Shown: positions 9,427-61,414, numbered from the stretch's first letter. The stretch is 64,000 bases of DNA from an uncultured Actinomycetes bacterium (GCA_963817105.1 CAWFNA010000001.1:66711-130710); one strand, 5' to 3'. The notes: generated by a model not told the origin, from the sequence alone. A program made the numbers and translations.

Positions 9427-9427
9427 T

Positions 9428-26018: not shown

Positions 26019-26022
<4 letters not shown>
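24592..26022 (+). CDS. zwf: glucose-6-phosphate 1-dehydrogenase
   Basis: GTG 24592 is preceded by AAAGGGGA. Motifs: [11 protein letters not shown] (NADP site), [16 protein letters not shown] (active-site peptide). Confidence 0.9.
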
Positions 26023-27933
<1,911 letters not shown>

Positions 27934-27942
27934 GGAGGAGAC

Positions 27943-29497: not shown

Positions 29498-29504
29498 TGC
29501 GGAG

Positions 29505-34533: not shown

Positions 34534-34536
34534 GCC

Positions 34537-45128: not shown

Positions 45129-45135
45129 GCGCGTA

Positions 45136-46359: not shown

Positions 46360-46402
46360 GGGGAGATAATAATACGTCTGTACGGTTTTGTAAAGTGCGG
46401 TC
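46360..46402. promoter_or_regulatory. divergent promoter region with -10 boxes placed for leaderless transcripts
   Basis: TAAAGT (46391-46396) lies 6 nt before the TetR ATG 46403. TATTAT on the reverse strand (46366-46371) lies 6 nt before the MFS GTG 46359. Confidence 0.45.
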
Positions 46403-46990
46403 ATGCCGAAGGTGAGCCAGGAGCACCTCGACGCCCGCCGCGCCGAGATCCTCGAGGGGGCACGCCGCGCGTTCGCGAGATACGGGTACGGGGGCGCGAC
46501 GGTCGCCCGCCTCGAGGAGGAGATCGGGCTGTCGCGGGGGGCGATCTTCCACTACTTCGACTCGAAGCTCGACCTCTTCGTCGAGCTCGCATTCGTCGAC
46601 AACCTCCGCTACGTGGGCATGCTGACCGAGCACGGGGTCGAGGCCGTGCTCCGGGCGATCGCGGCCGCGGACCGGGACTGGCTGAACGTCCTGATCGAGA
46701 CGGAGGTGCGGCTCTGGCACGACCCCGAGCTCCAGCAGCGGATGTCCAAAGTGGAGCAGCGAGCGCAGGAGCAGAGAGAGCAGCTCCTCGCCTCGTTCGA
46801 ACGTGCCCAGGCCGAGGGTCGACTGCGGACGGACCTCGACCTGGCCGACATCGTCGACTTCTCGACGATCCTGATCAACGGGCTCGCCGTCCGGGTTGCG
46901 GGCGGCGACCCGATGAGCATCGACGCCTTCGTACGCCTGGTGAACGACGCCCTACTCCCGCGCGGTCAGGAGCTAGCGTTCCCGTCGTGA
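46403..46990 (+). CDS. TetR/AcrR-family transcriptional regulator
   Basis: RRAEILEGARRAFARYGYGGATVARLEEEIGLSRGAIFHYFDSKLDLF is a TetR HTH. Confidence 0.85.
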   Translation: MPKVSQEHLDARRAEILEGARRAFARYGYGGATVARLEEEIGLSRGAIFHYFDSKLDLFVELAFVDNLRYVGMLTEHGVEAVLRAIAAADRDWLNVLIETEVRLWHDPELQQRMSKVEQRAQEQREQLLASFERAQAEGRLRTDLDLADIVDFSTILINGLAVRVAGGDPMSIDAFVRLVNDALLPRGQELAFPS

Positions 46991-48664
46991 GCAGCACCGC
47001 GGCTCCCACGGCCGGCGCAGGCGCAGACGAGCGGCCGACCCTCAAGCAGCTCCTCGAGATCCTCGGGAGCGACCTGGTCGAGGTCGTGGCCACGCCGCAC
47101 GGGATCGACGTTCCGGTCAACGAGCCCGTGATCTACGACTCGACCGAGCGGCTGGCGATCGTGCCCGGCGCGGTCGTGCTCGCGGTCGGGGTCCAGGGCG
47201 GGACGCCGCAGGCGTCGCGGTTGCTGACCGAGGCCGCAGAGGCGGGCGCGGCCGCCGTCGTCTTCAAGGGGACCGCGGACGAAGCGGCCGCCGGCGTCGC
47301 GGTCCTCTCCGTCCCGGAGGAGCTGACGTGGACCCAGCTGCACGCCTTCGTCCTGAACGCGAGTCGCTTCTCCTCGCAGGAGAGCTCGGGTGGTGGGATC
47401 GCAGGCGTCCCGCTCGGTGATCTCTTCGCCCTCTCGAACGCGATCGCGGGCATGGTCGGAGGCGCGGTCACGATCGAGGACCCGAGCAGGCGCGTGCTCG
47501 CCTACTCGAACCTCGACGACCAGCCGATCGACGGCGGCCGTCGCCGCTCGATCCTCGGACGGCAGGTCCCGGACATCCCCGGCATGCGGCAGCTCTACCG
47601 GCAGCTCTTCTCGACCGCGGGCGTGATGACGGAGGACGGCCTCGTCCTGCGGAAGCTGCTCGGCATCGACGATCTGCGCTCGCGCTCCGCCGTGGCGATC
47701 CGTGCGGGGACGCAGGCGATCGGCTCGATCTGGGTCGTCCACGACGATGAGCGCCTCAGCGAGGAAGCGGAGCGCGCGCTCGTCGAGGCTGCTCGGATCG
47801 CCGTGCCGCACGTGATCCAGGCGCGGGCGGCCCGTGACGTCGACCGGCGGATGCGCGCCGAGATGGTGCTCGCCGTGCTCGAGGGCCGTGGCTCCGCGGA
47901 GGAGACCGCGAGCCGACTCGGGTTCGCGCCGACCGAGGCGCTCTCGCTCTTCGCCCTCCAGCTGACGAGCTCCGAGTCAGGCGATCGACGAGCTCGAGCG
48001 CGAGCGGCTCGTGGATCTCGTCGGCTTCTACTGCGAGGTCTTCCGGCGGTCGAGCGCGGCCGTCGCGAGCGGCCAGAACGTGTACGTCCTGCTCCAGGGC
48101 GAGCGGACGATCGTGCCGGAGCGACTCGTCCGGCTCGCCCAGGAGATCCAGGCCCATGCCGAGACGCGACTCGGAGTCGGCCTGCTCGCCGCGATCGGAT
48201 CGACCGTGGAGAACGTGCACGACGTCCCGCGGGCGCGGCGCGAGGTCGAGAACGTCCTGACGGTGCTCGGCAACGACGCAAAGGGGCGGACGGTGGCCAC
48301 GGTCGAGGACGTCCGCAGCGAGGTCGTCATCCTCGAGCTGCGCGAGGCGAGCGCCGCCCGCCCGAGCCTCACGCGCGGGAAGCTCGAGCGCGTCCTGGCG
48401 TACGACTCGGCGCACGGGACGGCGTACGCGCAGACACTGCGCGCCTACCTCGACGCGTTCGGGGACGTCGCCACGGCGGCGACGCAGACCTCGATCCACC
48501 CGAACACGTTCCGCTACCGGATGCGGCGGCTCGTCGAGCTCTGCGACCTCGACCTCGCGAATCCCGAGGAGCGCCTGGTCATCGAGCTGCAGCTGCGCCT
48601 GCTCGGGGACGACACGTCTCGACGGCGGTCGTCACCCGACGGAGAACCTCCGGCAGCGGCGTGA
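46987..48664 (+). pseudogene. PucR/CdaR-family transcriptional regulator with one apparent frameshift
   Basis: GTG 46987 overlaps the TetR stop (GTGA). N-terminal sensory part in the frame of ORF 46087..48741. After about 47980 it continues as IDELERERLVDLVGFY... (ORF 48011..48664) and ends with the PucR C-terminal HTH, TLRAYLDAFGDVATAATQTSIHPNTFRYRMRRLVEL. Confidence 0.75.
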
Positions 48665-49706
48665 CGCCGAGCCCGGGCCCGGTCGGGACGGCCAGTCGCC
48701 CGTCGTCCAGCACGAACGGCTCGGTGAGGTCCTCCTCGTAGTACCTCCCTGACGCCGACGTGTCCCCCGGCAGCGTGAAGTTCGGGAGCCCGGCCAGCGC
48801 GACGTTCGCGGCGCGGCCGAGGCCCGTCTCGAGCATGCCGCCGCACCAGACCGGGACGTCGAGCGCCGCACACACGTCGTGGACGCGGCGCGCCTCGAGA
48901 TAGCCGCCGACCCGCCCGGCCTTGACGTTGACGACGCTGCACGCTCCGAGCGCGATCGCGGCCTCCGCCATGCGGGCCGACGTGATCGACTCGTCGAGGC
49001 AGACGGGCGTGCTCGCCAGTTTTGCCAGCTGGGCGTGGGCGGGGATGTCCTCCTCCGGGAACGGCTGCTCGATCAGCAGCAGGCCGAACTCGTCGAGCGC
49101 GGTGAGCGCGGGGATGTCGTCGACGCCGTACGCGGCGTTCGCGTCGACCTGGAGCGCGATGTCCCCGAAGTGCTCGCGCACGGCGCGGACGGGCTCGACG
49201 TCGTAGCCCGGCTCCACCTTCAGCTTGATCCGTCGGTAGCCCTCCGCCAGGTGCCGCTCGACCGTGCCCAGCAACTCGGCGACGGTCTCGTGGATCCCGA
49301 TCGAGACGCCGCAGTCGACCTCGGTGCGGACCGCCCCGAGGAACGCGCCGAACGAGACATCCTGTGCGCGCAGCTCGGCGTCGAGGATCGCCATCTCCAC
49401 CGCCGCTTTCGCCATCGGGTGGCCGCGGACCGGCCGGAGCAGCTCCGCGACCTCGACGGCCGCGACGTCGTCGACGGTGAACAGCCTCGGCAGCAGGTGC
49501 GTGCGGATGACGTCCTGCGCGCCGTCGACGTACTCAGCCGAGTACAGCGGCTCGACGAGCGCGACGCACTCGCCCCACCCCTCCGAGTCGGGCCCGATCA
49601 CGCGCACCAGGAGGATGTCGCGGTGGTGCTGCGTGCCGAACGAGGTCGTGAACGGCTCGACGAGGGGGATGTGGACGCGGCGCAGCTCGACGAGGTCGAT
49701 CTTCAT
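48579..49706 (-). CDS. enolase-superfamily o-succinylbenzoate synthase/N-acylamino-acid racemase family protein
   Basis: MKIDLVELRRVHIPLVEPFTTSFG. Catalytic and metal motifs: IKLKV (KxK), DANAAY, IEQP, CLDES, VNVKAGRVGG. Confidence 0.8.
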   Translation of the reverse strand: MKIDLVELRRVHIPLVEPFTTSFGTQHHRDILLVRVIGPDSEGWGECVALVEPLYSAEYVDGAQDVIRTHLLPRLFTVDDVAAVEVAELLRPVRGHPMAKAAVEMAILDAELRAQDVSFGAFLGAVRTEVDCGVSIGIHETVAELLGTVERHLAEGYRRIKLKVEPGYDVEPVRAVREHFGDIALQVDANAAYGVDDIPALTALDEFGLLLIEQPFPEEDIPAHAQLAKLASTPVCLDESITSARMAEAAIALGACSVVNVKAGRVGGYLEARRVHDVCAALDVPVWCGGMLETGLGRAANVALAGLPNFTLPGDTSASGRYYEEDLTEPFVLDDGRLAVPTGPGLGVTPLPEVLRRVTTAVETCRPRAGAAAAR

Positions 49707-50563
49707 CGTGTGAGGACGAACCAGCCGTCCCGCGTGATCGCCTCGGCGCGAAAGCCGTCGGAGAGCGATCGGCCGACGGTGTCGCGGAGGGCGCGCCGCC
49801 ACGCGTGCGCGCGGCCGGCGTCGGACTCGCGGAGCCGGACGATGTCCTCCGGGATCCAGGCCAGGAGCGTGTCGCCGTCGGCAGTCGCGGTCGTCGGCGA
49901 GCCGGCGGCGTCAGCCTGCAGGATCACCGCCGCGTCGGTCTCCGGCGCGGCCGCCTCGGAGGTGGAGCGGTCTGCCGCCGCGGCCACCCGGTCGGATGCG
50001 AGATCCCAGAGCACCTCGACGCGGTCGGTCTCCTCGCCCGAGTTCAGGCGGTCGTCGATCCGGCCGTAGAAGTCGTCGTGGTACGCGACGATCGTCGCGC
50101 CGAGCTTGACGAGGTTGAAGAACATGTTCATGCGTACGAGGGGATCCGCCGTCCACCGGACCGTGAGCGCACCGTGCTCCAGCGCCCACGTGCGCTGGAA
50201 CTGCTTCAGCGCGAAGCCGACTGACCGTCCCTGGAGGGTGGGGTCGACGCCGGTGATGTGCGAGTGCAGGTGCAGCTCGCCTCCCTCGATCCCGAAAAAG
50301 CCGAGGGAGATGCCGACCAGCTCGTCACCGGACCATGCGCCGGCGACGAAGTTGTCCGCGTGGGACAGGGCCCTGAGCAGGCTCGCAGGCGCCTTGGGCT
50401 CGTCGTCGTCCCAGATGCGCGAGACGAGCTGCGACCCCGACTCGAACTCCGGCAGCGTCTCGAGCACGCGGACGTCGACGCCCGCGTGCTCCGCCGCCTC
50501 GCGGGCCGCAGCGGCGGCGCGATCCTGAGGCGCGTCCAAAGTGCGGAGCTCGATTCGACTCAT
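49703..50563 (-). CDS. GNAT-fold N-acyltransferase (candidate amino-acid N-succinyl/acetyl-transferase)
   Basis: MSRIELRTL... within ORF 49703..50674. GVDPTLQGRSVGFALKQFQRTWALEHG is a CoA-binding motif. Its stop overlaps the racemase ATG (ATGA). Confidence 0.65.
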   Translation of the reverse strand: MSRIELRTLDAPQDRAAAAAREAAEHAGVDVRVLETLPEFESGSQLVSRIWDDDEPKAPASLLRALSHADNFVAGAWSGDELVGISLGFFGIEGGELHLHSHITGVDPTLQGRSVGFALKQFQRTWALEHGALTVRWTADPLVRMNMFFNLVKLGATIVAYHDDFYGRIDDRLNSGEETDRVEVLWDLASDRVAAAADRSTSEAAAPETDAAVILQADAAGSPTTATADGDTLLAWIPEDIVRLRESDAGRAHAWRRALRDTVGRSLSDGFRAEAITRDGWFVLTR

Positions 50564-50655
50564 GCCTCGATGCTTCCACGCGCGTCCGGTTCCAGCCTGG
50601 TCGGCGCACACAAGCTTCGGGACCGGACTTTGGGGTGTGAAACGATCGGAACCCT

Positions 50656-51795
50656 TTGGAGGGCCTGCTCGCACAGCTGCGCGACCGGACGCCGCAGATG
50701 GTCGATGCGCTGCGCATCCTGGTCGAGGCTGAGTCGCCGACGGCGGATCCCGCCGCGTGCGCGGCGTGCGCCGACGTCGCCGACGAGCTGGCGTCGCGGC
50801 TGCTCGGAACGCGCGGAGAACGCTGCGAGGTGGACGGGCGCGTGCACCTCCGCTGGCGGTTCGGATCCGCGGACCGCGTGCTCCTGATCGGGCACCTCGA
50901 CACCGTCTGGCCGCTCGGGACGCTCGCGTCGTGGCCGTTCGCCGCCGACGGCGAGACCGCGACCGGGCCCGGCGTGTTCGACATGAAGGCCGGCGTCGTC
51001 CAGCTCCTGTTCGCCCTGAACGCCCTCGAGGCGCTCGACGGCGTCGTCGTCCTCCTGACGTCCGACGAGGAGATCGGGTCGCCGACGTCGCGCGCGCTGA
51101 TCCAGGAGACGGCGGCGTCCGTCGAGGCGGCGCTCGTGCTCGAGCCGAGCGCGGCCGGAGCGTTGAAGACCGAGCGGAAGGGCGTCGCGACCTACCGGCT
51201 CGACGTCGAGGGACGCGCGGCGCACGCCGGGCTCGACCCCGAGCTGGGCGTGAACGCGGCGGTCGAGCTCGTCCACCAGTTGCTGGCCGTCGTGGAGCTG
51301 GCCGATCACGCCCAGGGGACGACCGTGAACCCCGGCATCGTCGCGGCGGGCACCGCGGTCAACACCGTCCCGGCCCAGGCAACGGCGCAGATCGACGTGC
51401 GGACGAGGTCTCGCGCCGAGGCGGACCGCATCGACGCCGCCTTCCGCGCGCTCCAGCCCGTCGCCGCAGGTGCGGTCCTCGCGGTCGAGCGGGTCTCGGC
51501 GGTGCCGCCGTTGGAGCGAGCCTCATCGGCGTCGCTGTTTCGTCGCGCCGAGAAGCTCGCGCGCCGGCTCGGGCTGCCGGCGCTCACGGAGGCTGCCGTC
51601 GGCGGCGGCTCCGACGGCAACATGATTGCGGAGCTCGGCGTCCCGACCCTGGACGGCCTCGGCGCGATCGGAGACCACGCGCACGGCCGCGGCGAGTACG
51701 TCCGGATCGGCGCGATGGCGGAGCGTGCGGCGCTCGTCGCGGCGCTCGTCGAGGATCTCCTTGTCGGCGGCACCGAGGGCACGGCCTCCGATTAG
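50656..51795 (+). CDS. M20-family metallopeptidase/amidohydrolase (carboxypeptidase G2-like)
   Basis: LIGHLDTVWP, GVFDMKAG, LLTSDEEIGS, GGGSDGN, DHAHGRGEYV. TTG start. Confidence 0.8.
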   Translation: MEGLLAQLRDRTPQMVDALRILVEAESPTADPAACAACADVADELASRLLGTRGERCEVDGRVHLRWRFGSADRVLLIGHLDTVWPLGTLASWPFAADGETATGPGVFDMKAGVVQLLFALNALEALDGVVVLLTSDEEIGSPTSRALIQETAASVEAALVLEPSAAGALKTERKGVATYRLDVEGRAAHAGLDPELGVNAAVELVHQLLAVVELADHAQGTTVNPGIVAAGTAVNTVPAQATAQIDVRTRSRAEADRIDAAFRALQPVAAGAVLAVERVSAVPPLERASSASLFRRAEKLARRLGLPALTEAAVGGGSDGNMIAELGVPTLDGLGAIGDHAHGRGEYVRIGAMAERAALVAALVEDLLVGGTEGTASD

Positions 51796-51843
51796 GCGTC
51801 GAGAACGAGGCGAGGGCTGGGCCGCGAGGAGAGGCTTAGGCCG

Positions 51844-54800
51844 GTGACTCGCCGCCAGCGAATCGACGACCTGACCACGGTTGCCGTGCCGGAGCAGCCC
51901 GCCCTCTCACCGGACGGCGGCGAGGTGGTCTACGTGCTCCGCACGATCGACGCGGACGCCGACAGGGCCGTGCGTGCCCTCTGGCGAGTCGGAGCACGGA
52001 CGGGCGAGCCGCAACAACTGACCCGCGGCACCGCGGACATGTCGCCAGCCTGGTCGCCGGATGGATCGCGGATCGCCTTCCTCCGCGCGCAGGACGGGCC
52101 GGCGCAGATCTGGACGCTTCCGGCCGCGAGGCGGCGAGCCGCAGCAGCTGACGACGCTGCCGCTCGGCGCCGGCGCGCCGGTCTGGAGCCCCGACGGGTC
52201 GAGCATCGCGTTCGCCGCGGCCACCGACATGCTCGCCGACGAGGGCGAGGACGACGCGGCCCGGGCGAAGCGGGCGGCGGCGCCGATCGTCGCCGACCGG
52301 CTCGACTACCAGGCCGACGGAGCCGGCTTCATCCGCACGATCCGCAAGCACGTGCATGTCCTCGACCCCGAGACCAAGGACTGCCGCCAGGTCACCCGCG
52401 GCGACTGGCACGCCGGTGACCCGTCCTGGTCGCCGGACAGCGAGAAGCTCGCGTTCGCGGCGGCGACCGCGCCCGACGCCGACCTCCGGCCGCGCGTCCC
52501 TGTCCACCTTGTCCACGTGGGCGAGACCGATGGGACGCCGGAGCCCGTCGCGCTCCACGATGGGCTCGCCGGCGCGATCACGTGGAGCAGCGACGGCTCG
52601 TCGCTACTCGTCGTCGGCTGGCCCGGCGATCCGGTCGGCCACCAGGGCCTGTTCCGCGTGCCGCTGGACGGCGGCGAGGCCGAGAACCTCGCGGCCCCCC
52701 TCGACCGGAACGTGATGCAGGGCGGGCCGGCCTATCCTGGGGGGCTGCCGCAGCTCGCCGAGGACGGCCGAGTCGTTGTCTTCTGCGTCCGTGACCGCGG
52801 CTGCACGCACCTGTACTCGACGCCGCTGGAGGGCGGCGCTCCCGAGCCGGTCGTCGCCGGCGCCGGCCGCGTCGTCTCGGGCCTGTCGCTCGCCGGCGGG
52901 ACGGCCGCAGTCGTGCTCGCCACGCCCACGTCGCTCGGCGAGATCGTCGTCGTCGACCTGGCCACCGGCGAGGAGACGGTCCGCACGAGCCACGGCGAGA
53001 GCGAGGTCGAGCTGTACGTGCGCGAGGAGCGCGTCTTCGCGATCTCGGACGGGGTCGAGGTGCACGGCTGGCTCATGCGCGACCAGTCGGTCGCCAGGCC
53101 CCAGCCGCTCCTGCTGGACATCCACGGCGGGCCGCACAACGCCTGGAACGGCGCCGCCGACGACATGCACCTGTACCACCAGGAGCTCGTCCGCCGTGGG
53201 TGGACGATCCTGCTGATCAACCCGCGCGGGAGCGACGGGTACGGCGAGGAGTTCTACCTCGGCGTCCGCAACGCGTGGGGCGAGGTCGACGCGAAGGACT
53301 TCCTCGAGCCGATCGACGACCTCGTCGCGGAGGGCATCGCCGATCCGAAGCGGCTAGCGGTCACCGGCTACAGCTACGGCGGCTACATGACCTGTTACCT
53401 CACGAGTCGGGACGACCGGTTCACGGCCGCCGTCGCGGGTGGTGTCGTCGCCGATCTCACCAGCCAGGCAGGCACGGCCGACATGGGGCACTTCATGAAC
53501 GCGTACGAGCTCGGCGGCACGCCGTGGGCCGACCGCGAGCGCTTCGACGCGATGTCGCCCTTCGCGTCGGTCGACCGCGTCGAGACGCCGACGCTGATCC
53601 TCCACGGGGCCGCCGACCAACGCTGCCCCGTGGGCCAGGCGCAGCAATGGCACACCGCCCTGCGCGAGCTCGGCGTCCCGACGCGGCTCGTGCTCTACCC
53701 CGAGGCCGGGCACCTCTTTATCCTCGAAGGCAGGCCGTCGCACCGCATCGACTACAACCAACGTGTCATCGACTGGGTGGAGGAATACGCCGTGGAAACT
53801 CGCACGAAGATCGATCAGAAGCACTGGCAGCGCCGACTCGGCGAGATCGCCGAACGGCATCGGGTGCCGGGCGCCACGCTCGGGATCCTGCGCTTCAACC
53901 CCGACGGCGAGGACGAGCTCGTCGAGGCGGCGTACGGCCTCCTGAACAAGGAGACGGGCGTCGAGACCACGACCGACTCGGTCTTCCAGATCGGGTCGAT
54001 CACGAAGGTCTGGACCGCGACCGTCGCGATGCAGCTCGTCGACGAGGGCAAGGTCGACCTCGACGCGCCCGTCGCCGACGTGCTCCCCGAGCTCACCCTC
54101 GCGGACGAGGACGTGGCGAAGCAGGTGACGCTGCGCCAGCTCCTCACGCACACGAGCGGCATCGACGGCGACATCTTCACCGACACCGGGCGGGGCGACG
54201 ACGCGGTCGAGAAGTACGTCGCCCAGCTGGCGGACGCCGGCCAGAACCACCCCATCGGCGCGACCTGGTCGTACTGCAACTCCGGCTACACGATCGTCGG
54301 GCGCGTGATCGAGAAGCTGACGGAGGGCACCTGGGACGCCGCGATGGGCGAGCGGCTCTTCACGCCTCTGGGCCTGCAGCACACGGGGACGCTCCCGGAG
54401 GAAGCGCTGCTCCACCGGGCGGCCATGGGCCACATCGGCGACGACAACGACCGCGCGCCGACCTGGGTCCTGCCGCGGTCGGCCGGCCCGGCCGGCCTGA
54501 TCAACTCGACCGTCGCCGACGTCCTCGCCTTCGCGCGGATGCACCTCGCCGGCGGCGTCGCGGCGGACGGGACGCGCGTGCTCAGCGAGGAGAGCGCGGC
54601 GGCCATGACGGAGCACCAGGCCGACGTGCCCGACAAGCACACGCTCGGGGACTCGTGGGGGCTCGGCTGGATCCGCTTCGACTGGAACGGCCGGCGCCTG
54701 ATCGGCCACGACGGGAACACGCTCGGCCAGGCGGCATACCTGAAGCTCTTCCCCGACGAGGGCCTGGCGGTCACGCTCCTCACGAACGGCGGCAGCGGCC

Positions 54801-55177
54801 ACGACCTCTATGTCGAGCTCTACCGCGAGATCTTCGCCGAGCTCGCGGACCTCGAGATGCCGGATCCGCTCAAGCCGCCGGCCGAGCCCGTGGAGGTCGA
54901 CGTCGACTCCCACGTCGGCACGTACGAGCGCGCGAGCGTCAAGATCGAGGTGCTGAACGACGGCGACGGGCCGCTCCTGCGCACGACCGTCACCGGACCG
55001 CTCGCCGAGCTGATGCCGAAGACGACCGAGGAGTACGCCCTCATCCCAGTGGAGGACAACCTTTTCGTCGTTCAGCCGTCACAGACGGAGACATGGATCC
55101 CGGTGACCTTCTATGAGCTGTCGGGCGGCGAGAAGTACATGCACTTCGGTGCCCGCGCGACGCCGAAAGTGGGCTAA
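51844..55177 (+). pseudogene. fusion protein: beta-propeller + S9 prolyl-oligopeptidase domain + beta-lactamase-fold serine hydrolase (D-aminopeptidase-like) + C-terminal barrel, with one apparent frameshift
   Basis: N-terminus in ORF 51844..52419 (WSPDGSRIAF repeats), with a shift near 52127 into ORF 52061..55177. S9 motifs: HGGPHNAW, GYSYGG, LILHGAADQRCP, EAGHLF. Then QIGSITKVW (SxxK), YCNSGY (YxN), GHDGNTLG, and a ~110-aa tail. Confidence 0.75.
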
Positions 55178-55363
55178 GGAGCGGCGCCGGTCGCTGAGGC
55201 GACTGGTGGCCGCTCGTGTGGAATCACCAATCTCGCGCTGGGCGTTCGTCCGAGGCGACGAGGCTGGTCGATGACCGCGGTTCCATGATCTGTACGAGCG
55301 GAAGGTCGGCGAAGGGGGCTCGCCAACCCGGAAAACCTGGCATGGTCGAATGGGAGGGTGTAG

Positions 55364-56942
55364 ATGCGTAGGGTAGTTGGTGCAATCGTGACCGCCGCCG
55401 CGGTCGTGTTGCTCACAGCAGGTCTCGCGACCGGAAGCCTGGGCCCCGGCGGGGGAGCGGGTTCTCTGGCGGCGTCGTCCCCGCAGGCTTCGGCGGCGAA
55501 GGCCGCCGTCAAGGGCACGCTCACGATCGCGATCGGGAGCGACCCGGGCAACCTCGATCCACAGCTGTCATTGCTCTCGACGACGCGAGGGGTCAACAAC
55601 TTCGCCTACGACACGCTCGTCCACATCGTCGGGCCGGGCCAGGTCCCGGTCGGGGCTCGCGACGTCCTGGAAGGTGCTCTCGACGACGAGGGTCCGGTTC
55701 ACGCTGGTGCGTGGCGCCACGTGCTCCGACGGCAGCGCCATGAACGCGTCGGTCGTCAAGCGGAACCTCGATTTCGTCAGCGACCCGAAGAACAAGTCGC
55801 CGCTGCTCGGCGTGTTCGTCCCCCCGAACCTGACGGTCGCTGCGAACAACAGGGCCCGAACGGTCACGGTCACCAGTCCGACGCCGAACCCGTTCCCGCT
55901 GCAAGGGCTCGGGCTCGTCCAGATGGTCTGCACGCGGGGCATGAACAACCGCTCTCTGCTCGTGCACCGCGCAATCGGGAGCGGCCCGTACCGGCTCACG
56001 CAGGCGGTCTCCGGTGACCACTACACCTTCGCGGTGCGCAACGGATACCACTGGGGATCCGGCGGTGGGACGACCCGCGCGCTGCCGTCGAAGGTCGTCT
56101 TCAAGGTCGTCTCGAACGAGACGACGACGGCGAACCTCCTGCTCTCGCACGGCGTGAACATCGGCTCGATCATCGGTCCCGACCGCACGCGTCTGAACCG
56201 GGCCAAGCTGTTCAAGGTCGTCCTGGCCGCCACGCCCAACGAGTTCTGGTTCAACCAGAACAGCGGCCACGCAGCCGCGAACGCGGGCGTCCGCCGCGGG
56301 CTCGTCCAGGCAATGCGGCTCACCCAGATCGGATCGATCATCACCTCCGGGCGGGGCGTGCCGATCAGGACGTTGACGAGCCAGGCCTTTACGCCGTGCA
56401 AGGGGAACTCCGTCAAGGGGAGCATCCCGGCCTACAACCCGACCGCCGCGAGGGCGGCCCTCTCGAGCCGTCCCGCGATCAGGATCGTCTACCCGTCGGA
56501 TTTCGGCGCTTCGATCACGGCGGCGATGGAGCTCCTCCAGGCTCAGCTCTCGACGGCGGGCGCGAGGGTGACCCTCGTCGGAGGCACCGAGACGGATCTC
56601 TTGACGGCGCTCTTCGGCACCGGCAACTGGGACATTGCGTTCGCCCCGGTGACGGTCGCGAACCCGTCGCAGCTCGTCGGGCTCGTCTCGGGGCCGGCAG
56701 CGCCGAACGGCGCGAACTTCAGCAACATCGACAACGCCTCGTACAAGTCGCTGTCCACGTCCGCGCTCGGGAAGTTCGGCGCGGCCGCGTGCAGGGACTG
56801 GATCAGGGCGGAGTCCGCGCTGATGCGGGGCAGCGACGTCGCTCCGACGAACGTCACGACCACCGCGACGTACGGCAGCAGGGCAAGGTTCGGGCTCGAC
56901 GTCGCGGGCATCATCCCGACGAGCGTGAGGCTCACGAAGTGA
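55364..56942 (+). pseudogene. ABC transporter substrate-binding protein, family 5 (peptide/nickel type), with one apparent frameshift
   Basis: Signal peptide MRRVVGAIVTAAAVVLLTAG, then GTLTIAIGSDPGNLDPQ. The shift is near 55650 into ORF 55674..56942. Confidence 0.75.
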
Positions 56943-56943
56943 G

Positions 56944-57939
56944 GTGACAGAAGCCTCGGCTTCTGTCCCGCGTCCACGGCACTGGTGGGCGGACCATCCC
57001 CGGTCCGCCCACGTGGTGCGCCGTTCGGCTCGACTCGTCGTCTCGCTCGTCCTGTTGCTGACGGCGACGTTCGTGATGATCCATCTCGTGCCTGGCGACC
57101 CGGTTCGGGCATCGCTGGGGTTCACTGCGCCGGAGAGCCTCGTCCGCGAACGGCGCGCGGCGCTCGGGCTCGACGATCCAATCGCCACGCAGTACGTCCA
57201 CTACGTCGGTCGTGTCCTGCACGGCGACTTCGGGACGTCGCTGACGTCGCAGGAGCCGGTCACCGACATTGTGCGCGCACGCTTTCCGGCCACGTTGCGC
57301 ATCGCGGGGCTCGCATTCCTCGTGGCGATGCTGATCTCGATTCCCCTCGGCGTGACGATGGCCGCGGCAACCCGTGACGGCCGGCGCCGGGGTGTCGAGC
57401 TTGCGTTCACCTCGACGTCGGGCGCGCTCGCCTCGATCCCTTCGTACTTGCTCGCGGTCGGCCTCGTCTACGTCTTCGCCGTCACGTGGAAAGCCCTGCC
57501 GGTGGCAGGCCGCAGCGGCGCCTCGTCGTACGTGCTCCCGGTCGCCGCGCTCGCGATCGGGCCGGCGCTCGCGCTGTCGCGGATCGTCCGGGTCGAGGGC
57601 CTCAGAGTGCTCGACCAGGACTTCATCCGCACGGCTCGCGGGAAGCGGTTGTCGCCCCGCCTGGTGTATCTGCGGCACGCTCTGCCCAACACGCTGACCG
57701 CAACCCTGACGATCGCGGGCCTCCTGCTCGGCACCCTGATCGCCGGAACCGTCCTCGTGGAGAACGTCTTCGCCTGGCCGGGACTGGGGACGTCGCTCGT
57801 CCAGTCGGTCGCCGCGAGGGACTACCCCACGGTGCAGGCGCTCGCCGTGATCTTCGGAGGGCTCGTGCTCGTCATCAACTTCGTCGTGGACATCGCGCTC
57901 GGCGTGATCGATCCGCAGTCGACGATCAACGACCGGTAA
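56944..57939 (+). CDS. ABC transporter permease (DppB/OppB-like)
   Basis: LTATFVMIHLVPGDPV and the FIRTARGKRLS EAA-loop region. The true start may be GTG 57013. Confidence 0.8.
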   Translation: MTEASASVPRPRHWWADHPRSAHVVRRSARLVVSLVLLLTATFVMIHLVPGDPVRASLGFTAPESLVRERRAALGLDDPIATQYVHYVGRVLHGDFGTSLTSQEPVTDIVRARFPATLRIAGLAFLVAMLISIPLGVTMAAATRDGRRRGVELAFTSTSGALASIPSYLLAVGLVYVFAVTWKALPVAGRSGASSYVLPVAALAIGPALALSRIVRVEGLRVLDQDFIRTARGKRLSPRLVYLRHALPNTLTATLTIAGLLLGTLIAGTVLVENVFAWPGLGTSLVQSVAARDYPTVQALAVIFGGLVLVINFVVDIALGVIDPQSTINDR

Positions 57940-57945
57940 GCGGCG

Positions 57946-59872
57946 TTGTCCCGGCGCTGGCTCCAGGTGCTGCGCAGCCCCGTCGGGGCGGTCGCGTTCG
58001 TGATGGTCTCCGTGATCGTCCTGCTTGCGATCGTCGCGCCGGAGATCTGGTCGCATGCGGCATCCCGCTTCGACTTCACCGCCACGCAGCAGGGACCGAG
58101 CCGCGAGCACCTGCTCGGCACCGACGCGCTCGGGCGCGACATCCTCGACAGGATCCTCGTCGCCACGCGCCTGTCGGTCTCGCTGGCTGCCCTCGCTACC
58201 GGGCTCGGCGCTGCGATCGGCATTCCGATCGGCGCGCTGCCGGTGATCGCCGGCCCGCGGCTCGGCCGTCTCGTCGCCGGGTTCATCAACCTGACCGTCG
58301 CCTTCCCGGCGCTCCTGCTCGCGATCTTCGTCGCCGGGATCGTCGGCGTCGGCGCGCGCGGAGCCGTGATCGGCCTCGGCTGCGCCGTCGCGCCGTACTT
58401 CGCGCGTCTGAGCCAGACGCTGTCCGCGTCGGTCGCCGGCTCCGACTACGTCGCCGCTGCGCGCGTGCTCGGCGTCAGCCGCCCCAGGCTGATCTTCCGC
58501 CATGTCCTCCCGAACATCGCCGAGCCGCTCCTACTGACGATCACGATTGCGATGGGGGACGCTCTGCTCGCCCTGGCCGGTCTGAGCTTCCTGGGGCTCG
58601 GTGTCCAGCCGCCCTCCTACGACTGGGGGCGGATGCTCAACGAGGGACTCGATCGGATCTACGTCACGCCGGTGGTGGCGCTCGCGCCCGCGGTCGCGAT
58701 CGTGCTCGCGGCGGTCGGCTTCAACCTCCTCGGCGAGGCCCTCGCCAAGGCGGCGAGCGGCCGGACGGCGCCGCCGCGCTGGAAGGGCGCGGGGACGAGC
58801 GGGGGCGCTGGCGCAGTCGACGCCGAGCCGCCGGCGGCGGCCGCGGGCCGCGCCGACACCGAGCTCGTCCTCGAGTGTGAGGGGCTCTCCGTCTCGTTCC
58901 CCGGCGGGTCGGTCCCCGTGCGCGACATCTCGATGTCGCTCGCGCCCGGGGAGATCGTCGGGATCGTCGGCGAGTCCGGCTCCGGCAAGAGCCTCACGGC
59001 CATGGCGATCGCCGACCTGCTGCCGGGGCAGGGGCGCATGACCGCCCGCCGTTTGCGGTTGTTCGGGCAGGACCCGCGTATCGCTCGACGCCGCAGCACG
59101 GCGCAAGCTGCTCGGCTCGTCGCTCGCGATCGTGTACCAGGATCCGATGTCCTCGCTCAATCCGGCTCTGCGCGTCGGGACGCAGCTCACGGAGGTCGCC
59201 GAGGAGCACGGCGGCGCGACGCGATCGGAGGCACGGGAGCGGAGCGTCGACCGCCTGCGGCTCGTGCGCGTGAACAACCCCGAGCGGCGTGTCCGTCAGT
59301 TCCCGTACGAGTTCTCCGGCGGGATGCGCCAGCGGGCCGTGATCGGCATGGGCCTGATGGTCGAGCCCCGGCTGATCATCGCGGACGAGCCGACGACCGC
59401 GCTCGACGTCACGGTGCAGCAGCAGATCCTCCGACTGCTCGACAACGCCAGCAAGTCGTCCGGAGCAGCGGCCATCTTCATCTCGCACGACATCGCCGTC
59501 GTCTCGCAGCTCTGTAGCCGCGTGCTCGTGATGTACGCCGGACGTATCGTCGAGGAGCTCGACATCGAGGCGCTCACGGAGCAGCCGGCGCACCCGTACA
59601 CCGCGGCGCTCGTCGCCGCGGTGCCGACGATGGAGTCGGAGCGCGGCCGCCGGCTCGCGACGATCCCCGGGCGCGCTCCGGGGCCTTTCGATCATTCTCC
59701 GGGCTGCCCATATGCGTCGCGTTGCCCACGTGTGTCCGAGCGCTGTCGCGTCGAGATGCCTCCGCTGGAGCCGCTCGGCGACGGGCATCGCGCCGCATGC
59801 TGGCATCCGATCGGCGCGGGGGAGAGCCCGGCGCCGCTCGAGGAACCGCTCTCGACGCGCGACGTCGCTTGA
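57946..59872 (+). pseudogene. ABC permease (DppC-like) fused in frame to an ATP-binding domain (DppD-like), with one apparent frameshift
   Basis: Permease: HLLGTDALGRDILDRI, YVAAARVLGVSRPRLIFRHVLPN. About 35-aa linker. NBD: GESGSGKS, then a shift near 59070 into ORF 59132..59872 (YQDPMSSLNP, FSGGMRQRA, IIADEPTTALD, PHPYT). Confidence 0.7.
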
Positions 59873-60879
59873 CCACCCTCGAGACCCGTGAGCTGACGGT
59901 GCGGTTCGGTCGCGGCACGTCGACCCTGACCGCCGTCGACCGGGTCGACCTGCTGGTTCCCGAGCAGACGATCCTGGGGCTCGTCGGGGAGTCGGGGTCC
60001 GGCAAGTCGACGGTCGCGCGCGCCCTCGTCGGACTCACCCCGATCGCGGGCGGCGACGTCCTGCTCGACGGAGAGTCCGTCGTGGGTGGGCGCAGTCGCC
60101 GCGTGTCGGCGCATCGGCGCGTGCAGATGGTCTTCCAGGATCCGTTTGCGTCGCTCAATCCCCGGATGACCGTGGGCGCGGCGATCGCGGAGGCGCTGAC
60201 GGTCGGTCGCCGCACCGAACGAGCCGCGCGGGGGGAGTCGGTCACGGACTACCTCGAGCTCGTGCACCTCGATCCGGCGGTCGCGGAGAATCCACCGAGC
60301 CAGCTGTCCGGGGGCCAGCGTCAGCGGGTCGCGATCGCGCGGGCGCTCGCCGCGCGGCCCGAGGTGCTGATCGCCGACGAGATCACCTCGTCGCTCGACG
60401 TCTCCGTCCAGAGCGCGGTCCTCAACCTCATGCGCGACCTGCAGCGGCAGCTCGGGATCTCGATGATCTTCATCTCGCACAACCTCGCGACCGTCCGCTA
60501 CGTCAGCGACATGCTCGCGGTCATGTACCTCGCCCGAGTCGTCGAGGTCGGATCGACCGAGGCGGTCGTGGCCGCACCGGAGCACCCGTACACGAGGACG
60601 CTGCTGGGCGCCGTCCCGCGCCTCGGCGTCCGCATCTCCGAGGGGGAGGCGAGCGGCGTCGACGCCGTCGAGCCTCCGGACCCGCACGACCCCCCGGCGG
60701 GCTGCCGGCTGCACCCGCGCTGCCCGATCGGCCCGCTGGTCGATCCGACGAGGCAGATCTGCATCGACGCCGACCCGCAGGACGAGGCGGGCACGAGGCT
60801 TCATCGAGCGGCCTGCCACTTCGCCGCGCGAGCGATCCCCGGCGACGTCTCGGACGCGCGCGAGCCGACTACGGCCTGA
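59869..60879 (+). CDS. ABC transporter ATP-binding protein (DppF/OppF-like)
   Basis: TTG 59869 overlaps the previous stop. Motifs: GESGSGKST, FQDPFASLNP, LSGGQRQRVAIARAL, LIADEITSSLD, EHPYT. Confidence 0.8.
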   Translation: MTTLETRELTVRFGRGTSTLTAVDRVDLLVPEQTILGLVGESGSGKSTVARALVGLTPIAGGDVLLDGESVVGGRSRRVSAHRRVQMVFQDPFASLNPRMTVGAAIAEALTVGRRTERAARGESVTDYLELVHLDPAVAENPPSQLSGGQRQRVAIARALAARPEVLIADEITSSLDVSVQSAVLNLMRDLQRQLGISMIFISHNLATVRYVSDMLAVMYLARVVEVGSTEAVVAAPEHPYTRTLLGAVPRLGVRISEGEASGVDAVEPPDPHDPPAGCRLHPRCPIGPLVDPTRQICIDADPQDEAGTRLHRAACHFAARAIPGDVSDAREPTTA

Positions 60880-61414
60880 GGCCGTCGATCACGACCTGGA
60901 CGTAGCGGCGCCACGCGTCGCTCCGTCCGGAGTTCATCGACGCCTGGATCGCCGCGCCCACGAGCGCGCCGATGTCGCGCGAGTCGAGGCCGCGACGGAT
61001 GGCGCCCGAGCGCTGCGCGCGGCGGATCAGCCTCCCGGCCGCCTCGTGCAGCTCTTGCTTGGCGTCCGAGACTTCCGCGAAGCCCTCGCACTGCTCGATG
61101 CCCTCGAAGAGGGCGCGGTCGCGTCGGCACGCCTCGGCGGCGACCCACATGAACTCCTCGAGGGCGGCTCCGGTGTCGGGCTGCTCGAGGAGCTCGTGCA
61201 CGCGCGCGACCAGCTCGTCGAGGCGCGCGCCGATGACCGCGGCACGAAGCGCATCCTTCGTCGGAAAGCGGCGGAAGATGGTGCCGTGGCCGACGCCGGC
61301 GCGGCGCGCGATCTCGTCCATGGTCACGTCCGGCCCGAGCTCGGCGTACGCGTCGGAGGCCGCCTCCAGGATGCGGTCGAGGTTCCGCTGTGCGTCGGCG
61401 CGAAGGACGGTCAT
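60869..61414 (-). CDS. TetR/AcrR-family transcriptional regulator
   Basis: MTVLRADAQRNLDRILEAASDAYAELGPDVTMDEIARRAGVGHGTIFRRFPTKDAL. The ATG sits in a CTGATGACC context. It is in the same frame as the upstream MFS with no intervening stop. Confidence 0.75.
   Translation of the reverse strand: MTVLRADAQRNLDRILEAASDAYAELGPDVTMDEIARRAGVGHGTIFRRFPTKDALRAAVIGARLDELVARVHELLEQPDTGAALEEFMWVAAEACRRDRALFEGIEQCEGFAEVSDAKQELHEAAGRLIRRAQRSGAIRRGLDSRDIGALVGAAIQASMNSGRSDAWRRYVQVVIDGLRP

What the first reader, a model, noticed from the sequence alone, without database searches (positions are those of the whole stretch)
46987..60879. Candidate D-amino-acid-peptide salvage locus: PucR regulator, racemase-GNAT-M20 trio, D-aminopeptidase-like fusion and Dpp-type importer
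**Established background**
- An enolase-superfamily N-succinylamino-acid racemase, a GNAT succinyltransferase and an M20 desuccinylase together form an irreversible D-to-L amino-acid conversion route. It has been characterised in a Geobacillus species.

**Observed here**
- The same three families are adjacent. The racemase and GNAT are translationally coupled (ATGA), and the M20 gene is divergent.
- Immediately after them come an S9 peptidase fused to a beta-lactamase-fold (D-stereospecific peptidase-like) domain and a five-component-equivalent peptide ABC importer.
- A PucR-type regulator sits upstream.

**Inference**
- The locus forms one regulon that imports D-residue-containing peptides (muropeptides or non-ribosomal peptides), cleaves them and converts the released D-amino acids to the L form.
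- I am not aware of this combined arrangement having been described.
Basis: partly seen in the sequence, partly recalled or inferred. Interest (0 to 1): 0.6.

Follow-up and report, generated by a model that had tools for sequence, protein, structure and literature searches.

The report
Conserved actinobacterial D-peptide salvage gene cluster
A soil actinobacterium carries a conserved gene block joining a peptide importer, a two-headed peptidase and the known three-enzyme route that turns D-amino acids into L-amino acids; the same block surrounds the classic Amycolatopsis racemase, so that enzyme's natural role can now be tested.

Summary
The cluster is far more conserved than chance allows.

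[quoted passage not shown] It keeps the catalytic residues and R266.
- **Menaquinone:** I found no MenD and no MenB above cut-off, but two futalosine-route genes. OSBS activity is therefore not needed.
- **Conservation:** the same gene order recurs in 31 species-level Gaiellaceae/Thermoleophilia genomes. The same gene set recurs on one strand in cultured Pseudonocardia and an Amycolatopsis-like genome.
- **Distribution:** the locus was not found in 52 other species of the window's own genus, so it is a patchy accessory island.
- **Core pair:** GNAT and NSAR are an invariant, translationally coupled pair (40 of 40 phylum-wide loci). M20, S12, S9, PucR and Dpp are add-on modules.
- **Regulation:** a shared promoter-region motif lies before the GNAT and binding-protein genes. 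This supports co-regulation.
- **Corrections:** PucR is convergent with the racemase, not upstream of it. Four genes carry single frameshifts, and short-read contigs show at least two are assembly errors.

D-peptide substrates remain inferred. This is a new variant of a known kind, of moderate interest.

The parts
46403..46990 (+). TetR-family regulator. Neighbour only. Its stop overlaps the PucR start (GTGA).
   Evidence: Pfam TetR_N/TetR_C_6; junction sequence. Present next to PucR only here and in the closest metagenomic relative. Absent from the other loci.
46987..48664 (+). PucR/CdaR-type regulator, about 558 aa. One frameshift at ~47975-47985 in this assembly. Convergent with the racemase gene, with an 86-bp 3' overlap.
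   Evidence: HTH_30 and GGDEF_2; AdeR-like N- and C-terminal parts. Alignment to intact 566-571 aa orthologues locates a single frame change. Conserved in 31/31 loci and in L119, L120 and L078.
48579..49706 (-). N-succinylamino-acid racemase (NSAR/OSBS subfamily), 375 aa.
   Evidence: TIGR01928 305 bits, above cut-off. PDB 1sja Amycolatopsis NAAAR E=9e-154. The KxK motif, K263, D189/E214/D239 and R266 equivalents are conserved.
49703..50563 (-). GNAT-fold acyltransferase, 286 aa, with an extra C-terminal domain of about 80 aa. Its stop overlaps the racemase ATG (ATGA).
   Evidence: Weak Pfam Acetyltransf_1. AF2 model pLDDT 86.8 with generic GNAT-fold matches. RSVGFA CoA-binding-type motif. An NSAR gene follows it directly in 40/40 phylum-wide loci.
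50564..50655 (.). Divergent promoter/operator region between GNAT and M20. It holds conserved blocks: TTGT-N8-ACCAGG here (ACCATG in relatives) and the extended -10-like TGGAAGCATC 6-9 nt before the GNAT ATG.
   Evidence: Alignment of 27-30 loci. No consensus RNA structure and no Rfam match. Motif census.
50656..51795 (+). M20 metallopeptidase/deacylase (carboxypeptidase G2-like), 379 aa, with no signal peptide.
   Evidence: Peptidase_M20 plus M20_dimer. PDB 1cg2 E=3e-40. N-termini of orthologues carry no hydrophobic leader.
51844..55177 (+). Cytoplasmic fusion of about 1111 aa: PD40/Tricorn-like propeller, S9C (acylaminoacyl-peptidase-like) domain, S12 (beta-lactamase-fold, 'CubicO'-type) domain and a C-terminal extension. 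One frameshift at ~52129.
   Evidence: Pfam. PDB neighbours of both halves. Full-length alignment to intact orthologues shows GYSYGG/D/H and SxxK (SITK), YxN (YCN) and HxG (HDG) motifs, with no signal peptide. Homologues of ~1100 aa at 70-86% identity.
55178..55363 (.). Promoter region of the importer operon. Relatives carry TTGT-N8-ACGATG about 21 nt before a -10-like box. The window copy reads TTCGT...ACGAGG.
   Evidence: Alignment of 28 loci; motif census; window sequence.
55364..56942 (+). Family-5 solute-binding protein (Dpp/Opp type) with an N-terminal signal/anchor. The assembly has one extra base at 55645.
   Evidence: SBP_bac_5. Frames compared. One base is left out at 55645 in near-identical contigs of three short-read runs. 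Intact orthologues are 510-527 aa.
56944..57939 (+). DppB-type permease.
   Evidence: BPD_transp_1_N plus BPD_transp_1.
57946..59872 (+). Fused DppC permease and DppD ATPase (about 640 aa). One frameshift at ~59082.
   Evidence: OppC_N/BPD_transp_1 and ABC_tran in one frame, then ABC_tran/oligo_HPY in the next frame. Intact 632-643 aa fusions occur in relatives. One base is left out at 59082 in one short-read contig.
59869..60879 (+). DppF-type ATPase. Its TTG start overlaps the DppD stop.
   Evidence: ABC_tran plus oligo_HPY; PRK11308 268 bits, best NCBIfam match but below its cut-off of 408; junction sequence.

Best explanation
This is an accessory nutrient-salvage island for peptides that contain D-amino acids.

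**Proposed route**
1. A Dpp-type ABC importer brings oligopeptides into the cell. It consists of a binding protein, DppB, a fused DppC-DppD and DppF.
2. A cytoplasmic two-headed peptidase cleaves them. One head is an S9C acylaminoacyl-peptidase-like domain. The other is an S12 beta-lactamase-fold domain of the type that is usually D-stereospecific.
3. The cytoplasmic M20 enzyme probably helps with cleavage.
4. The GNAT N-acylates the released D-amino acids, probably with succinyl-CoA.
5. The NSAR racemises the N-acyl-D-amino acid.
6. The M20 enzyme removes the acyl group from the L-form only, which makes the conversion irreversible.
7. A PucR-type regulator encoded beside the genes controls the divergent GNAT/M20 promoters and the importer promoter through a shared TTGT-N8-AC(C/G)ATG element in the -35 region.

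**Shown here:** family membership, intact active-site motifs, cytoplasmic location, no menaquinone need for OSBS, co-conservation, and the shared motif.

**Inferred:** the substrate class, the acyl donor, and the regulator-motif pairing.
For: **Racemase identity**
- TIGR01928 scores above its cut-off.
- The best solved relative is the Amycolatopsis NAAAR, at 515 bits.
- Catalytic lysines, metal ligands and the R266 equivalent are all present.

**No OSBS need**
- No MenD match and no MenB above cut-off.
- Two PF02621 MqnA/MqnD-type genes are present.
- No second OSBS-like gene scores above cut-off.

**Co-conservation**
- 31 of 31 Thermoleophilia loci found through the GNAT alone keep the order DppF-DppD-DppC-DppB-SBP-S12-S9-M20 <> GNAT-NSAR >< PucR.
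- The same gene set lies on one strand in Pseudonocardia xinjiangensis.
- It also lies on one strand in a genome whose NSAR scores 627 bits to the Amycolatopsis T-1-60 enzyme. That locus has no M20.
- A variant with an M19 dipeptidase, a stand-alone S12 gene and PucR also exists.
- GNAT-NSAR adjacency holds in 40/40 phylum-wide loci. M20 is present in 9/40, S12 in 9/40 and PucR in 5/40.

**Peptidase**
- Both catalytic motif sets are intact and there is no signal peptide.
- S12 neighbours include Pab87, the R61 DD-peptidase, alkaline D-peptidase and D-amino-acid amidase.
- S9 neighbours are acyl-peptide hydrolases.
- Pab87 is D-stereospecific. It sits beside a dipeptide ABC transporter and a D-aminoacylase (PMC2651629).

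**Regulation**
- The pattern TTGT-N7-10-AC[CG]ATG has 51 hits in 566 kb of related loci.
- 27 hits lie before the binding-protein gene, 21 before GNAT and 3 before PucR. None lies elsewhere.
- The spacing to a -10-like box is the same at these sites.

**Literature**
The GNAT/NSAR/M20 trio is the accepted D-to-L conversion pathway context (bioRxiv 10.1101/2022.03.03.481873; PMC12006748).
Against: - There is no biochemical or expression evidence for any step in this lineage.
- S12-fold domains also include esterases and beta-lactamases. The two best PDB hits of the domain, IS11 and an 'alpha/beta hydrolase', are not described as D-peptidases.
- The binding protein gives no clue to its ligand.
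- I could not test homology between this GNAT and the characterised Geobacillus succinyltransferase.
- M20 is missing from the Amycolatopsis-like locus and from 31 of 40 phylum-wide GNAT-NSAR loci at the threshold used. The trio is therefore not always local.
- The motif was derived from the same two promoter regions in which it was then counted. Only the three PucR-upstream hits and the absence of hits elsewhere are independent.
- In the window itself both motif copies deviate (ACCAGG and ACGAGG), and the motif is absent from the Pseudonocardiales loci.
- Two of the four frameshifts (PucR and S9-S12) were not resolved, so pseudogenisation in this strain is not excluded.
Confidence: 0.55

Rival explanations
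1. The cluster salvages N-acylated amino acids or peptides rather than D-peptides as such. The importer takes up N-blocked peptides, such as N-acetyl or N-succinyl peptides or lipopeptide fragments. The S9C domain releases the N-acyl amino acid, as acylaminoacyl-peptidases do. NSAR equilibrates any N-acyl-D form and M20 deacylates the L form. The GNAT only re-captures free D-amino acids.
For: The S9 half is closest to acyl-peptide hydrolases and acylamino-acid-releasing enzymes. NSAR and M20 both act on N-acyl amino acids (bioRxiv 10.1101/2022.03.03.481873). The fusion is always next to GNAT/NSAR in the extended loci.
Against: This does not explain why an S12 domain, which is mostly D-stereospecific (PMC2651629), is fused to the S9 domain. 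It also does not explain why stand-alone S12 genes recur in variant loci without S9. The invariant partner of NSAR is the acyltransferase, not a peptidase (40/40). That fits free D-amino acids as the entry point.
Confidence: 0.17
2. The cluster detoxifies or resists a D-residue peptide antibiotic or a beta-lactam-like compound. The importer and the S12/S9 hydrolase destroy a toxic peptide, and the D-to-L module only clears the toxic D-amino acids that are released.
For: The S12 fold includes beta-lactamases, ClbP and PBP-type enzymes acting on non-ribosomal peptides. The locus is a patchy accessory island: 0 of 52 species in the genus and 6 of 400 in the family carry it. MFS/TetR genes flank it.
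Against: The hydrolases are cytoplasmic and coupled to an importer, which suits nutrition better than resistance. No biosynthetic or efflux genes are conserved with the cluster. The flanking MFS-TetR gene belongs to the genus backbone, not to the island.
Confidence: 0.1
3. The enolase-family enzyme works as o-succinylbenzoate synthase for menaquinone, and its neighbours are unrelated.
For: Pipelines name it and all its close homologues 'o-succinylbenzoate synthase'. It is the only gene in the genome above the TIGR01928 cut-off. Many NSAR/OSBS enzymes are promiscuous.
Against: No MenD was found and no MenB scores above cut-off, while futalosine-route genes are present. The gene was not found in 52 congeners and in 394 of 400 sampled family members, which does not suit an essential quinone gene. 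It is translationally coupled to a GNAT in 40/40 loci.
Confidence: 0.03
4. In this particular strain the locus is decaying. The frameshifts in PucR and in the S9-S12 gene are real, so the island is a non-functional remnant of a transfer.
For: There are four frame changes in 14 kb. Two of them were not covered by independent reads. Both promoter motif copies deviate from the consensus.
Against: The two sites that could be checked are assembly errors. GC3 stays above 0.9 and alignment to orthologues is full-length on both sides of each break. There are no stop codons or deletions.
Confidence: 0.1

Closest known systems
[quoted passage not shown] 2006, as summarised in bioRxiv 10.1101/2022.03.03.481873 and PMC12006748)
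   Same: The same three families are adjacent. The racemase is in the same NSAR/OSBS subfamily with the same catalytic residues and R266. Genome context excludes a menaquinone role.
   Different: Here the trio is embedded in a larger conserved unit with a Dpp-type importer, an S9-S12 fused peptidase and a PucR regulator. The GNAT is about 286 aa with an extra C-terminal domain. Its homology to the characterised succinyltransferase, and its acyl donor, were not testable. The M20 enzyme is carboxypeptidase-G2-like.
Amycolatopsis sp. T-1-60 N-acylamino-acid racemase (NSAR/OSBS; PDB 1sja), with A. mediterranei NSAR annotated from operon context (PMC12006748)
   Same: It is the closest solved relative, at 515 bits. 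An Amycolatopsis-like genome whose NSAR scores 627 bits to 1sja carries the same importer, S9-S12, GNAT, NSAR and PucR set.
   Different: The lineage differs (Gaiellaceae versus Pseudonocardiales). The genes there are all on one strand and lack a local M20. The held papers mention the GNAT/M20 context only, not the importer or peptidase.
Pyrococcus abyssi Pab87 'CubicO' S12 D-stereospecific peptidase with neighbouring D-aminoacylase and dipeptide ABC transporter (PMC2651629)
   Same: An S12 beta-lactamase-fold peptidase with SxxK/YxN/HxG motifs is encoded beside a Dpp-type ABC transporter and an N-acyl-amino-acid enzyme. It was proposed to feed on D-residue peptides from bacterial cell-wall debris.
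   Different: The host is archaeal. There is no S9 fusion, no NSAR/GNAT module and no PucR. It uses a D-aminoacylase rather than an acylate-racemise-deacylate cycle.
Bacillus subtilis dpp-ykf region: DppA D-aminopeptidase, DppBCDE importer and YkfB L-Ala-D/L-Glu epimerase. From my own knowledge; DppA as a D-aminopeptidase is cited in PMC2651629.
   Same: A dipeptide importer, a D-specific peptidase and an enolase-superfamily (MLE subgroup) racemase/epimerase are encoded together for murein-peptide recycling.
   Different: The peptidase fold differs (DppA is not S12). The enolase member is a dipeptide epimerase, and B. subtilis AEE scores only 107 bits to this protein. There is no GNAT/M20 cycle.
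DgcN/DgcA irreversible D-glutamate conversion pathway (mentioned in PMC12363236; NCBIfam NF042940)
   Same: The logic is the same: N-acylate the D-amino acid, racemise the N-acyl form with an enolase-superfamily enzyme, then deacylate.
   Different: This racemase scores 98 bits against the DgcA model, whose cut-off is 400. It is not a member of that family.

Membership tests
NSAR/OSBS subfamily (enolase superfamily, MLE subgroup) | Scores above the curated cut-off of the subfamily model and lies nearest to characterised NSAR/OSBS enzymes | tested here: met
   TIGR01928 scores 305.1 bits against a cut-off of 200.65. Ranked PDB hits: Amycolatopsis 515, Deinococcus 324, Thermus 315, Enterococcus 302 and Listeria 283 bits. 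Dipeptide epimerase scores 107 bits and other OSBS types about 63 bits.
NSAR/OSBS subfamily (enolase superfamily, MLE subgroup) | Catalytic KxK (K161/K163), K263 and metal ligands D189/E214/D239 (Amycolatopsis numbering) | tested here: met
   The residue-by-residue alignment to 1sja shows RIKLK, QVDAN, IEQP, LDES and VNVKAGRVGG.
NSAR/OSBS subfamily (enolase superfamily, MLE subgroup) | Second-shell R266, linked to NSAR activity (bioRxiv 10.1101/2022.03.03.481873) | tested here: met
   KAGRVGG aligns with KPGRVGG of 1sja.
NSAR as the biological function (not OSBS) | The organism does not need OSBS, or has a separate OSBS in a men operon | tested here: met
   No MenD match. The best MenB-like hit scores 154 bits against a cut-off of 343. 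Two PF02621 genes score 237 and 210 bits. The genome is 93.8% complete, so absence is not absolute.
NSAR as the biological function (not OSBS) | Racemase activity on N-succinyl or N-acetyl amino acids | not testable with these tools
   Needs an enzyme assay.
Geobacillus-type D-to-L conversion pathway | GNAT, NSAR and M20 genes are adjacent or co-transcribed | tested here: met
   GNAT stop and NSAR start overlap as ATGA. M20 is divergent across a 92-bp spacer. The same trio is present in 31/31 related loci.
Geobacillus-type D-to-L conversion pathway | The GNAT is a homologue of the characterised succinyl-CoA:D-amino-acid N-succinyltransferase | not testable with these tools
   No reference sequence could be reached. 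There is no PDB hit by sequence. The fold is a generic GNAT. Indirect support only: the family is followed by NSAR in 40/40 loci, and one Atlas look-alike cluster is mostly Bacillota.
Geobacillus-type D-to-L conversion pathway | The M20 enzyme is an L-specific N-succinyl-amino-acid hydrolase | not testable with these tools
   Only family placement is available: carboxypeptidase G2 is the nearest solved structure, and all NCBIfam hits are below cut-off.
MEROPS S12 (D-Ala-D-Ala carboxypeptidase B / D-aminopeptidase / CubicO group) | SxxK, YxN and HxG catalytic motifs in a beta-lactamase fold | tested here: met
   PF00144 scores 228 bits. SITK, YCN and HDG are conserved in all six aligned sequences. 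PDB neighbours include Pab87, R61, alkaline D-peptidase and D-amino-acid amidase.
MEROPS S12 (D-Ala-D-Ala carboxypeptidase B / D-aminopeptidase / CubicO group) | D-stereospecific peptidase or amidase activity | not testable with these tools
   Needs an assay. The fold also holds esterases and beta-lactamases.
MEROPS S9C (acylaminoacyl-peptidase type) | N-terminal beta-propeller plus an alpha/beta-hydrolase domain with a GxSxGG, Asp, His triad | tested here: met
   PD40/Tricorn_N and Peptidase_S9 domains. GYSYGG, HGAAD and the His of YPEAGH are conserved. The nearest PDB entries are an S9 peptidase and acyl-peptide hydrolases.
Dpp/Opp-type peptide ABC importer | Family-5 binding protein, two permeases, and two ATPases with the oligo_HPY C-terminal region | tested here: met
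   Pfam hits for all components. DppC and DppD are fused, as in relatives. Ligand specificity is not determined.
PucR/CdaR family regulator | C-terminal PucR HTH (HTH_30) preceded by a GGDEF-like domain | tested here: met
   HTH_30 scores 68 bits. GGDEF_2 scores 23.7 bits, just under its cut-off of 24.5. Intact orthologues of 547-571 aa carry both domains.

The most novel reading that the evidence does not exclude
The fused peptidase and the acyl cycle may work on the peptide itself.

1. The GNAT N-acylates the N-terminal D-residue of an imported peptide.
2. The S9C acylaminoacyl-peptidase head releases that residue as an N-acyl-D-amino acid.
3. NSAR racemises it and M20 deacylates it.
4. Meanwhile the S12 head trims C-terminal D-residues.

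This would be an 'acylate-to-cleave' route for dismantling D-residue peptides. It would explain why an acylaminoacyl-type S9 domain is fused to an S12 domain and is kept beside GNAT/NSAR from Gaiellaceae to Amycolatopsis. It would also give the industrial Amycolatopsis racemase a defined natural substrate supply.
Probability: 0.12. Interest if true: 0.8.

Novelty: new variant of a known kind. Interest (0 to 1): 0.5.

Why it matters
The N-acylamino-acid racemase of Amycolatopsis is a textbook case of enzyme promiscuity and an industrial catalyst. Its natural role has so far been argued mainly from a three-gene context. This work shows that the racemase-acyltransferase pair is an invariant unit across Actinomycetota. 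In several lineages, including cultured Pseudonocardia and Amycolatopsis relatives, the pair is built into a larger conserved block with a peptide importer, a large uncharacterised S9-S12 fused hydrolase and a dedicated regulator.

This yields a concrete hypothesis that can be tested in cultivable strains: where the D-amino acids come from and how soil actinobacteria recycle D-residue peptides such as cell-wall debris and non-ribosomal peptides.

It also flags a systematic mis-annotation. Pipelines call these genes 'o-succinylbenzoate synthase' even though this organism, by the genes found, makes menaquinone by the futalosine route.

Tried and rejected
- **Mis-binned contig:** rejected. Window 26-38.7 kb is syntenic at 75-87% DNA identity with same-genus genomes, and synteny resumes at 60870.
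- **Riboswitch or RNA leader in the conserved GNAT-M20 spacer:** rejected. RNAalifold finds no consensus structure, Rfam finds nothing, and the conserved TGGAAC.ATC block sits 6-9 nt before the ATG like an extended -10 box.
- **Dipeptide epimerase, muconate cycloisomerase or DgcA identity for the enolase gene:** rejected, all far below cut-off.
- **Chloroflexota GNAT homologues (35-39% identity) as a clue to function:** rejected. They are GNAT plus GIY-YIG fusions in a housekeeping context, with no NSAR.
- **Sequence search of the GNAT against solved structures:** no hit.
- **Solved-structure search with the binding protein:** one uninformative hit.
- **Reading Odokonyero et al. 2018 and 2014 for the published operon analysis:** not held. 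I cannot say whether the importer and peptidase neighbours were already noted there.
- **Short-read contigs at the PucR (~47980) and S9-S12 (~52129) frameshift sites:** nothing was reported there. Runs hold only 5-18% of the sampled words, so those two sites stay open. No habitat claim is made beyond 'soil metagenome' labels.
- **Kinship of the Gaiellaceae-labelled genomes through locus handles:** not disclosed by the tool. Settled indirectly, because the same genome appears in the family sample.
- **Shared motif in the Pseudonocardiales, L076 and L078 loci:** not found.
- **Literature search for the combined arrangement:** nothing found in the held library.

Full report
**1. What is there**

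The window has about 70% G+C, so raw ORF lists are mostly noise. I called coding frames from third-position GC and assigned domains with Pfam and NCBIfam.

Gene map, in window coordinates:
- TetR, 46403-46990 (+).
- PucR-type regulator, 46987-48664 (+).
- Enolase-superfamily racemase, 48579-49706 (-).
- GNAT, 49703-50563 (-).
- M20, 50656-51795 (+).
- S9 plus beta-lactamase-fold fusion, 51844-55177 (+).
- Family-5 binding protein, 55364-56942.
- DppB, 56944-57939.
- Fused DppC-DppD, 57946-59872.
- DppF, 59869-60879.

Junctions:
- TetR and PucR overlap as GTGA.
- DppD and DppF overlap as TTGA.
- PucR is not upstream of the enzymes. It converges on the racemase gene, and the two 3' ends overlap by 86 bp.

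**2. Frameshifts**

Four genes change frame once with no intervening stop: PucR, S9-S12, the binding protein and DppCD.
- When read through, each aligns over its full length to single-ORF orthologues from short-read MAGs and cultured strains.
- Contigs from public short-read soil metagenomes are near-identical to the window. They lack one base at 55645 in three runs and one base at 59082 in one run. These are the binding-protein and DppCD sites.
- The other two sites gave no report.
- The assembly has 11 contigs, 93.8% completeness and 6.1% contamination.
- I therefore read the breaks as assembly errors. Decay in this strain is not excluded for PucR and S9-S12.

**3. The racemase**

- It scores 305 bits on TIGR01928, whose cut-off is 201.
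- Its best solved relative is the Amycolatopsis N-acylamino-acid racemase (E=9e-154). [quoted passage not shown] Dipeptide epimerases and other OSBS types score far lower.
- The alignment shows the KxK motif, K263, the three metal ligands and the R266 equivalent.
- The genome gives no MenD match and no MenB above cut-off. It does have two MqnA/MqnD-type genes.
- No second OSBS-like gene scores above cut-off.
- By the genome-context rule used in the field, NSAR is therefore the biological function, not OSBS.
- Pipelines nevertheless name all close homologues 'o-succinylbenzoate synthase'.

**4. The other proteins**

*GNAT*
- It has only a weak Pfam hit.
- An AlphaFold model from 14 homologues (pLDDT 86.8) matches generic GNAT folds over about 170 residues. 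It adds a C-terminal domain of about 80 residues.

*M20*
- It is nearest to carboxypeptidase G2.

*S9-S12 fusion*
- The S9 half is nearest to acyl-peptide hydrolases.
- The beta-lactamase-fold half is an S12-type domain. Its neighbours include Pab87, the R61 DD-peptidase, alkaline D-peptidase and D-amino-acid amidase, but also esterase-like entries.
- Both catalytic motif sets are intact.

*Location*
- Neither the fusion nor the M20 enzyme has a signal peptide. Cleavage would therefore follow import.

**5. Conservation in relatives**

I searched one genome per species with an alignment of the GNAT alone and obtained 36 loci.
- All 31 loci from Thermoleophilia/Gaiellaceae-type MAGs keep the complete order DppF-DppD-DppC-DppB-SBP-S12-S9-M20 <> GNAT-NSAR >< PucR.
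- The five Chloroflexota hits are GNAT plus GIY-YIG fusions in an unrelated context.

Within the window's own lineage the locus is patchy.
- It has no DNA match in 52 other species of the genus. The flanks do match at 75-87%, and synteny resumes exactly at 60870.
- A close NSAR is present in 6 of 400 sampled genomes of the family, spanning 4 of 89 genera.
- It is present in 0 of 400 in the class sample.
- It is therefore an accessory island. I did not decide between transfer and repeated loss.

**6. Conservation across the phylum**

- A profile of the GNAT finds 4365 representative clusters.
- In a 400-genome phylum sample, 77 genomes in 48 of 249 genera carry it.
- I fetched 40 of those loci. 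NSAR directly follows the GNAT in 40 of 40. The window-type M20 is nearby in 9, an S12 gene in 9, PucR in 5, S9 in 3, and Dpp genes hardly ever.
- The invariant core is therefore GNAT-NSAR, and the rest are modules.

The full module set does recur outside Gaiellaceae.
- The fusion of about 1100 aa is 70-72% identical in Amycolatopsis, Kibdelosporangium, Actinophytocola, Pseudonocardia and Micromonosporaceae.
- In Pseudonocardia xinjiangensis the order is SBP-DppB-DppCD-DppF-S9S12-M20-GNAT-NSAR-PucR on one strand.
- In a genome whose NSAR scores 627 bits to the Amycolatopsis T-1-60 enzyme, the order is S12-SBP-DppB-DppCD-DppF-S9S12-GNAT-NSAR-PucR.
- A further variant reads M19 dipeptidase-M20-GNAT-NSAR-S12-PucR.

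**7. Regulation**

- The GNAT-M20 spacer is 92 bp here and 100-200 bp in relatives. It holds invariant blocks.
- It has no consensus RNA structure and no Rfam match.
- TGGAAC(G/C)ATC lies 6-9 nt before the GNAT start codon. It looks like an extended -10 box of a leaderless transcript. This is inference.
- The pattern TTGT-N7-10-AC[CG]ATG occurs 51 times in 566 kb of the 30 related loci. 27 hits lie before the binding-protein gene, 21 before GNAT and 3 before PucR. None lies elsewhere.
- Each hit sits about 21 nt upstream of a -10-like box.
- I derived the pattern from the first two sites. Only the three PucR-upstream hits and the absence of hits elsewhere are independent.
- In the window both copies deviate by a T-to-G change.
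- This supports co-regulation of the units. Assigning the site to PucR is inference from its constant presence in the locus.

**8. Comparison with what is known**

- The GNAT/NSAR/M20 trio is the known irreversible D-to-L route.
- The idea of an S12 D-peptidase beside a dipeptide ABC transporter and an N-acyl-amino-acid enzyme was put forward for Pyrococcus Pab87.
- From my own knowledge, B. subtilis dpp-ykf combines a D-aminopeptidase, a dipeptide importer and an enolase-family epimerase.
- I found no description of the present combination in the held literature.
- I could not read the main genome-context paper on NSAR operons.

**9. Verdict**

- The interpretation passes every computational test proposed for it, but it remains a hypothesis as to substrate.
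- This is a new variant of a known kind.
- Interest is moderate. It rises because the block surrounds the classic Amycolatopsis racemase and is present in cultivable strains.

**Unpublished genomes**

- G052 and G043 are among the genus genomes counted as lacking the locus.
- G861 supplied one of the 40 phylum loci (L099).
- No conclusion depends on them.

Noticed in passing
window 60869-62854 (-): A single 661-aa ORF fuses an MFS transporter (residues 14-408) to a TetR-type regulator (residues 495-661). It matches over its full 2.06 kb at 81-85% DNA identity in nine other genomes of the genus (G020, G015, G065 and others), with shorter or weaker matches in the rest. The fusion therefore looks real rather than an assembly artefact.
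   Followed up: partly
window 50564-50655 and 55178-55363; L030-L064 at ~9860 and ~5100-5300: A candidate shared operator, TTGT-N8-AC(C/G)ATG, lies about 21 nt upstream of -10-like boxes before GNAT, the binding-protein gene and, in three loci, PucR. There are no other hits in 566 kb. A degenerate copy (TTTGG-N7-ACCGAA) faces M20.
   Followed up: partly
window 26000-38000: Third-position GC shows about 24 short frame segments in 12 kb on one strand, far more than in neighbouring stretches.
   Followed up: partly
window 42300-46404: Two genes lie between the genus-conserved backbone and the cluster: a 942-aa Calx-beta/DUF5122 beta-propeller protein (42300-45128) and an MFS gene (45136-46404). 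The first has no listed same-genus DNA match. The MFS gene has only ~70% matches. An MFS-TetR pair also flanks the cluster in the closest metagenomic relative. The island may therefore start near 42.3 or 45.1 kb.
   Followed up: no
L031, L038, L041, L042 at ~13540-14920: Four related loci carry a second, stand-alone beta-lactamase-fold gene directly beyond PucR. It is 40-42% identical to the S12 domain. The Amycolatopsis-like locus L119 has one before the binding-protein gene.
   Followed up: no
L058-L062 at ~10000-11100: Chloroflexota homologues of the GNAT (35-39% identity) are fused to a GIY-YIG nuclease domain. They sit after TrmFO-like, histidine-kinase, aminotransferase and HflX genes.
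   Followed up: partly
L078 at 7774-15222: A metagenomic variant of the cluster starts with an M19 (renal-dipeptidase-type) peptidase, followed by M20-GNAT-NSAR-S12-PucR. This is another peptidase type recruited to the same core.
   Followed up: no
P0294, P0256: Two GNAT-family members appear to be longer fusions. One is a 485-aa protein with a C-terminal GatB/YqeY domain. The other is a 638-aa protein whose N-terminal 340 residues match no Pfam family.
   Followed up: no
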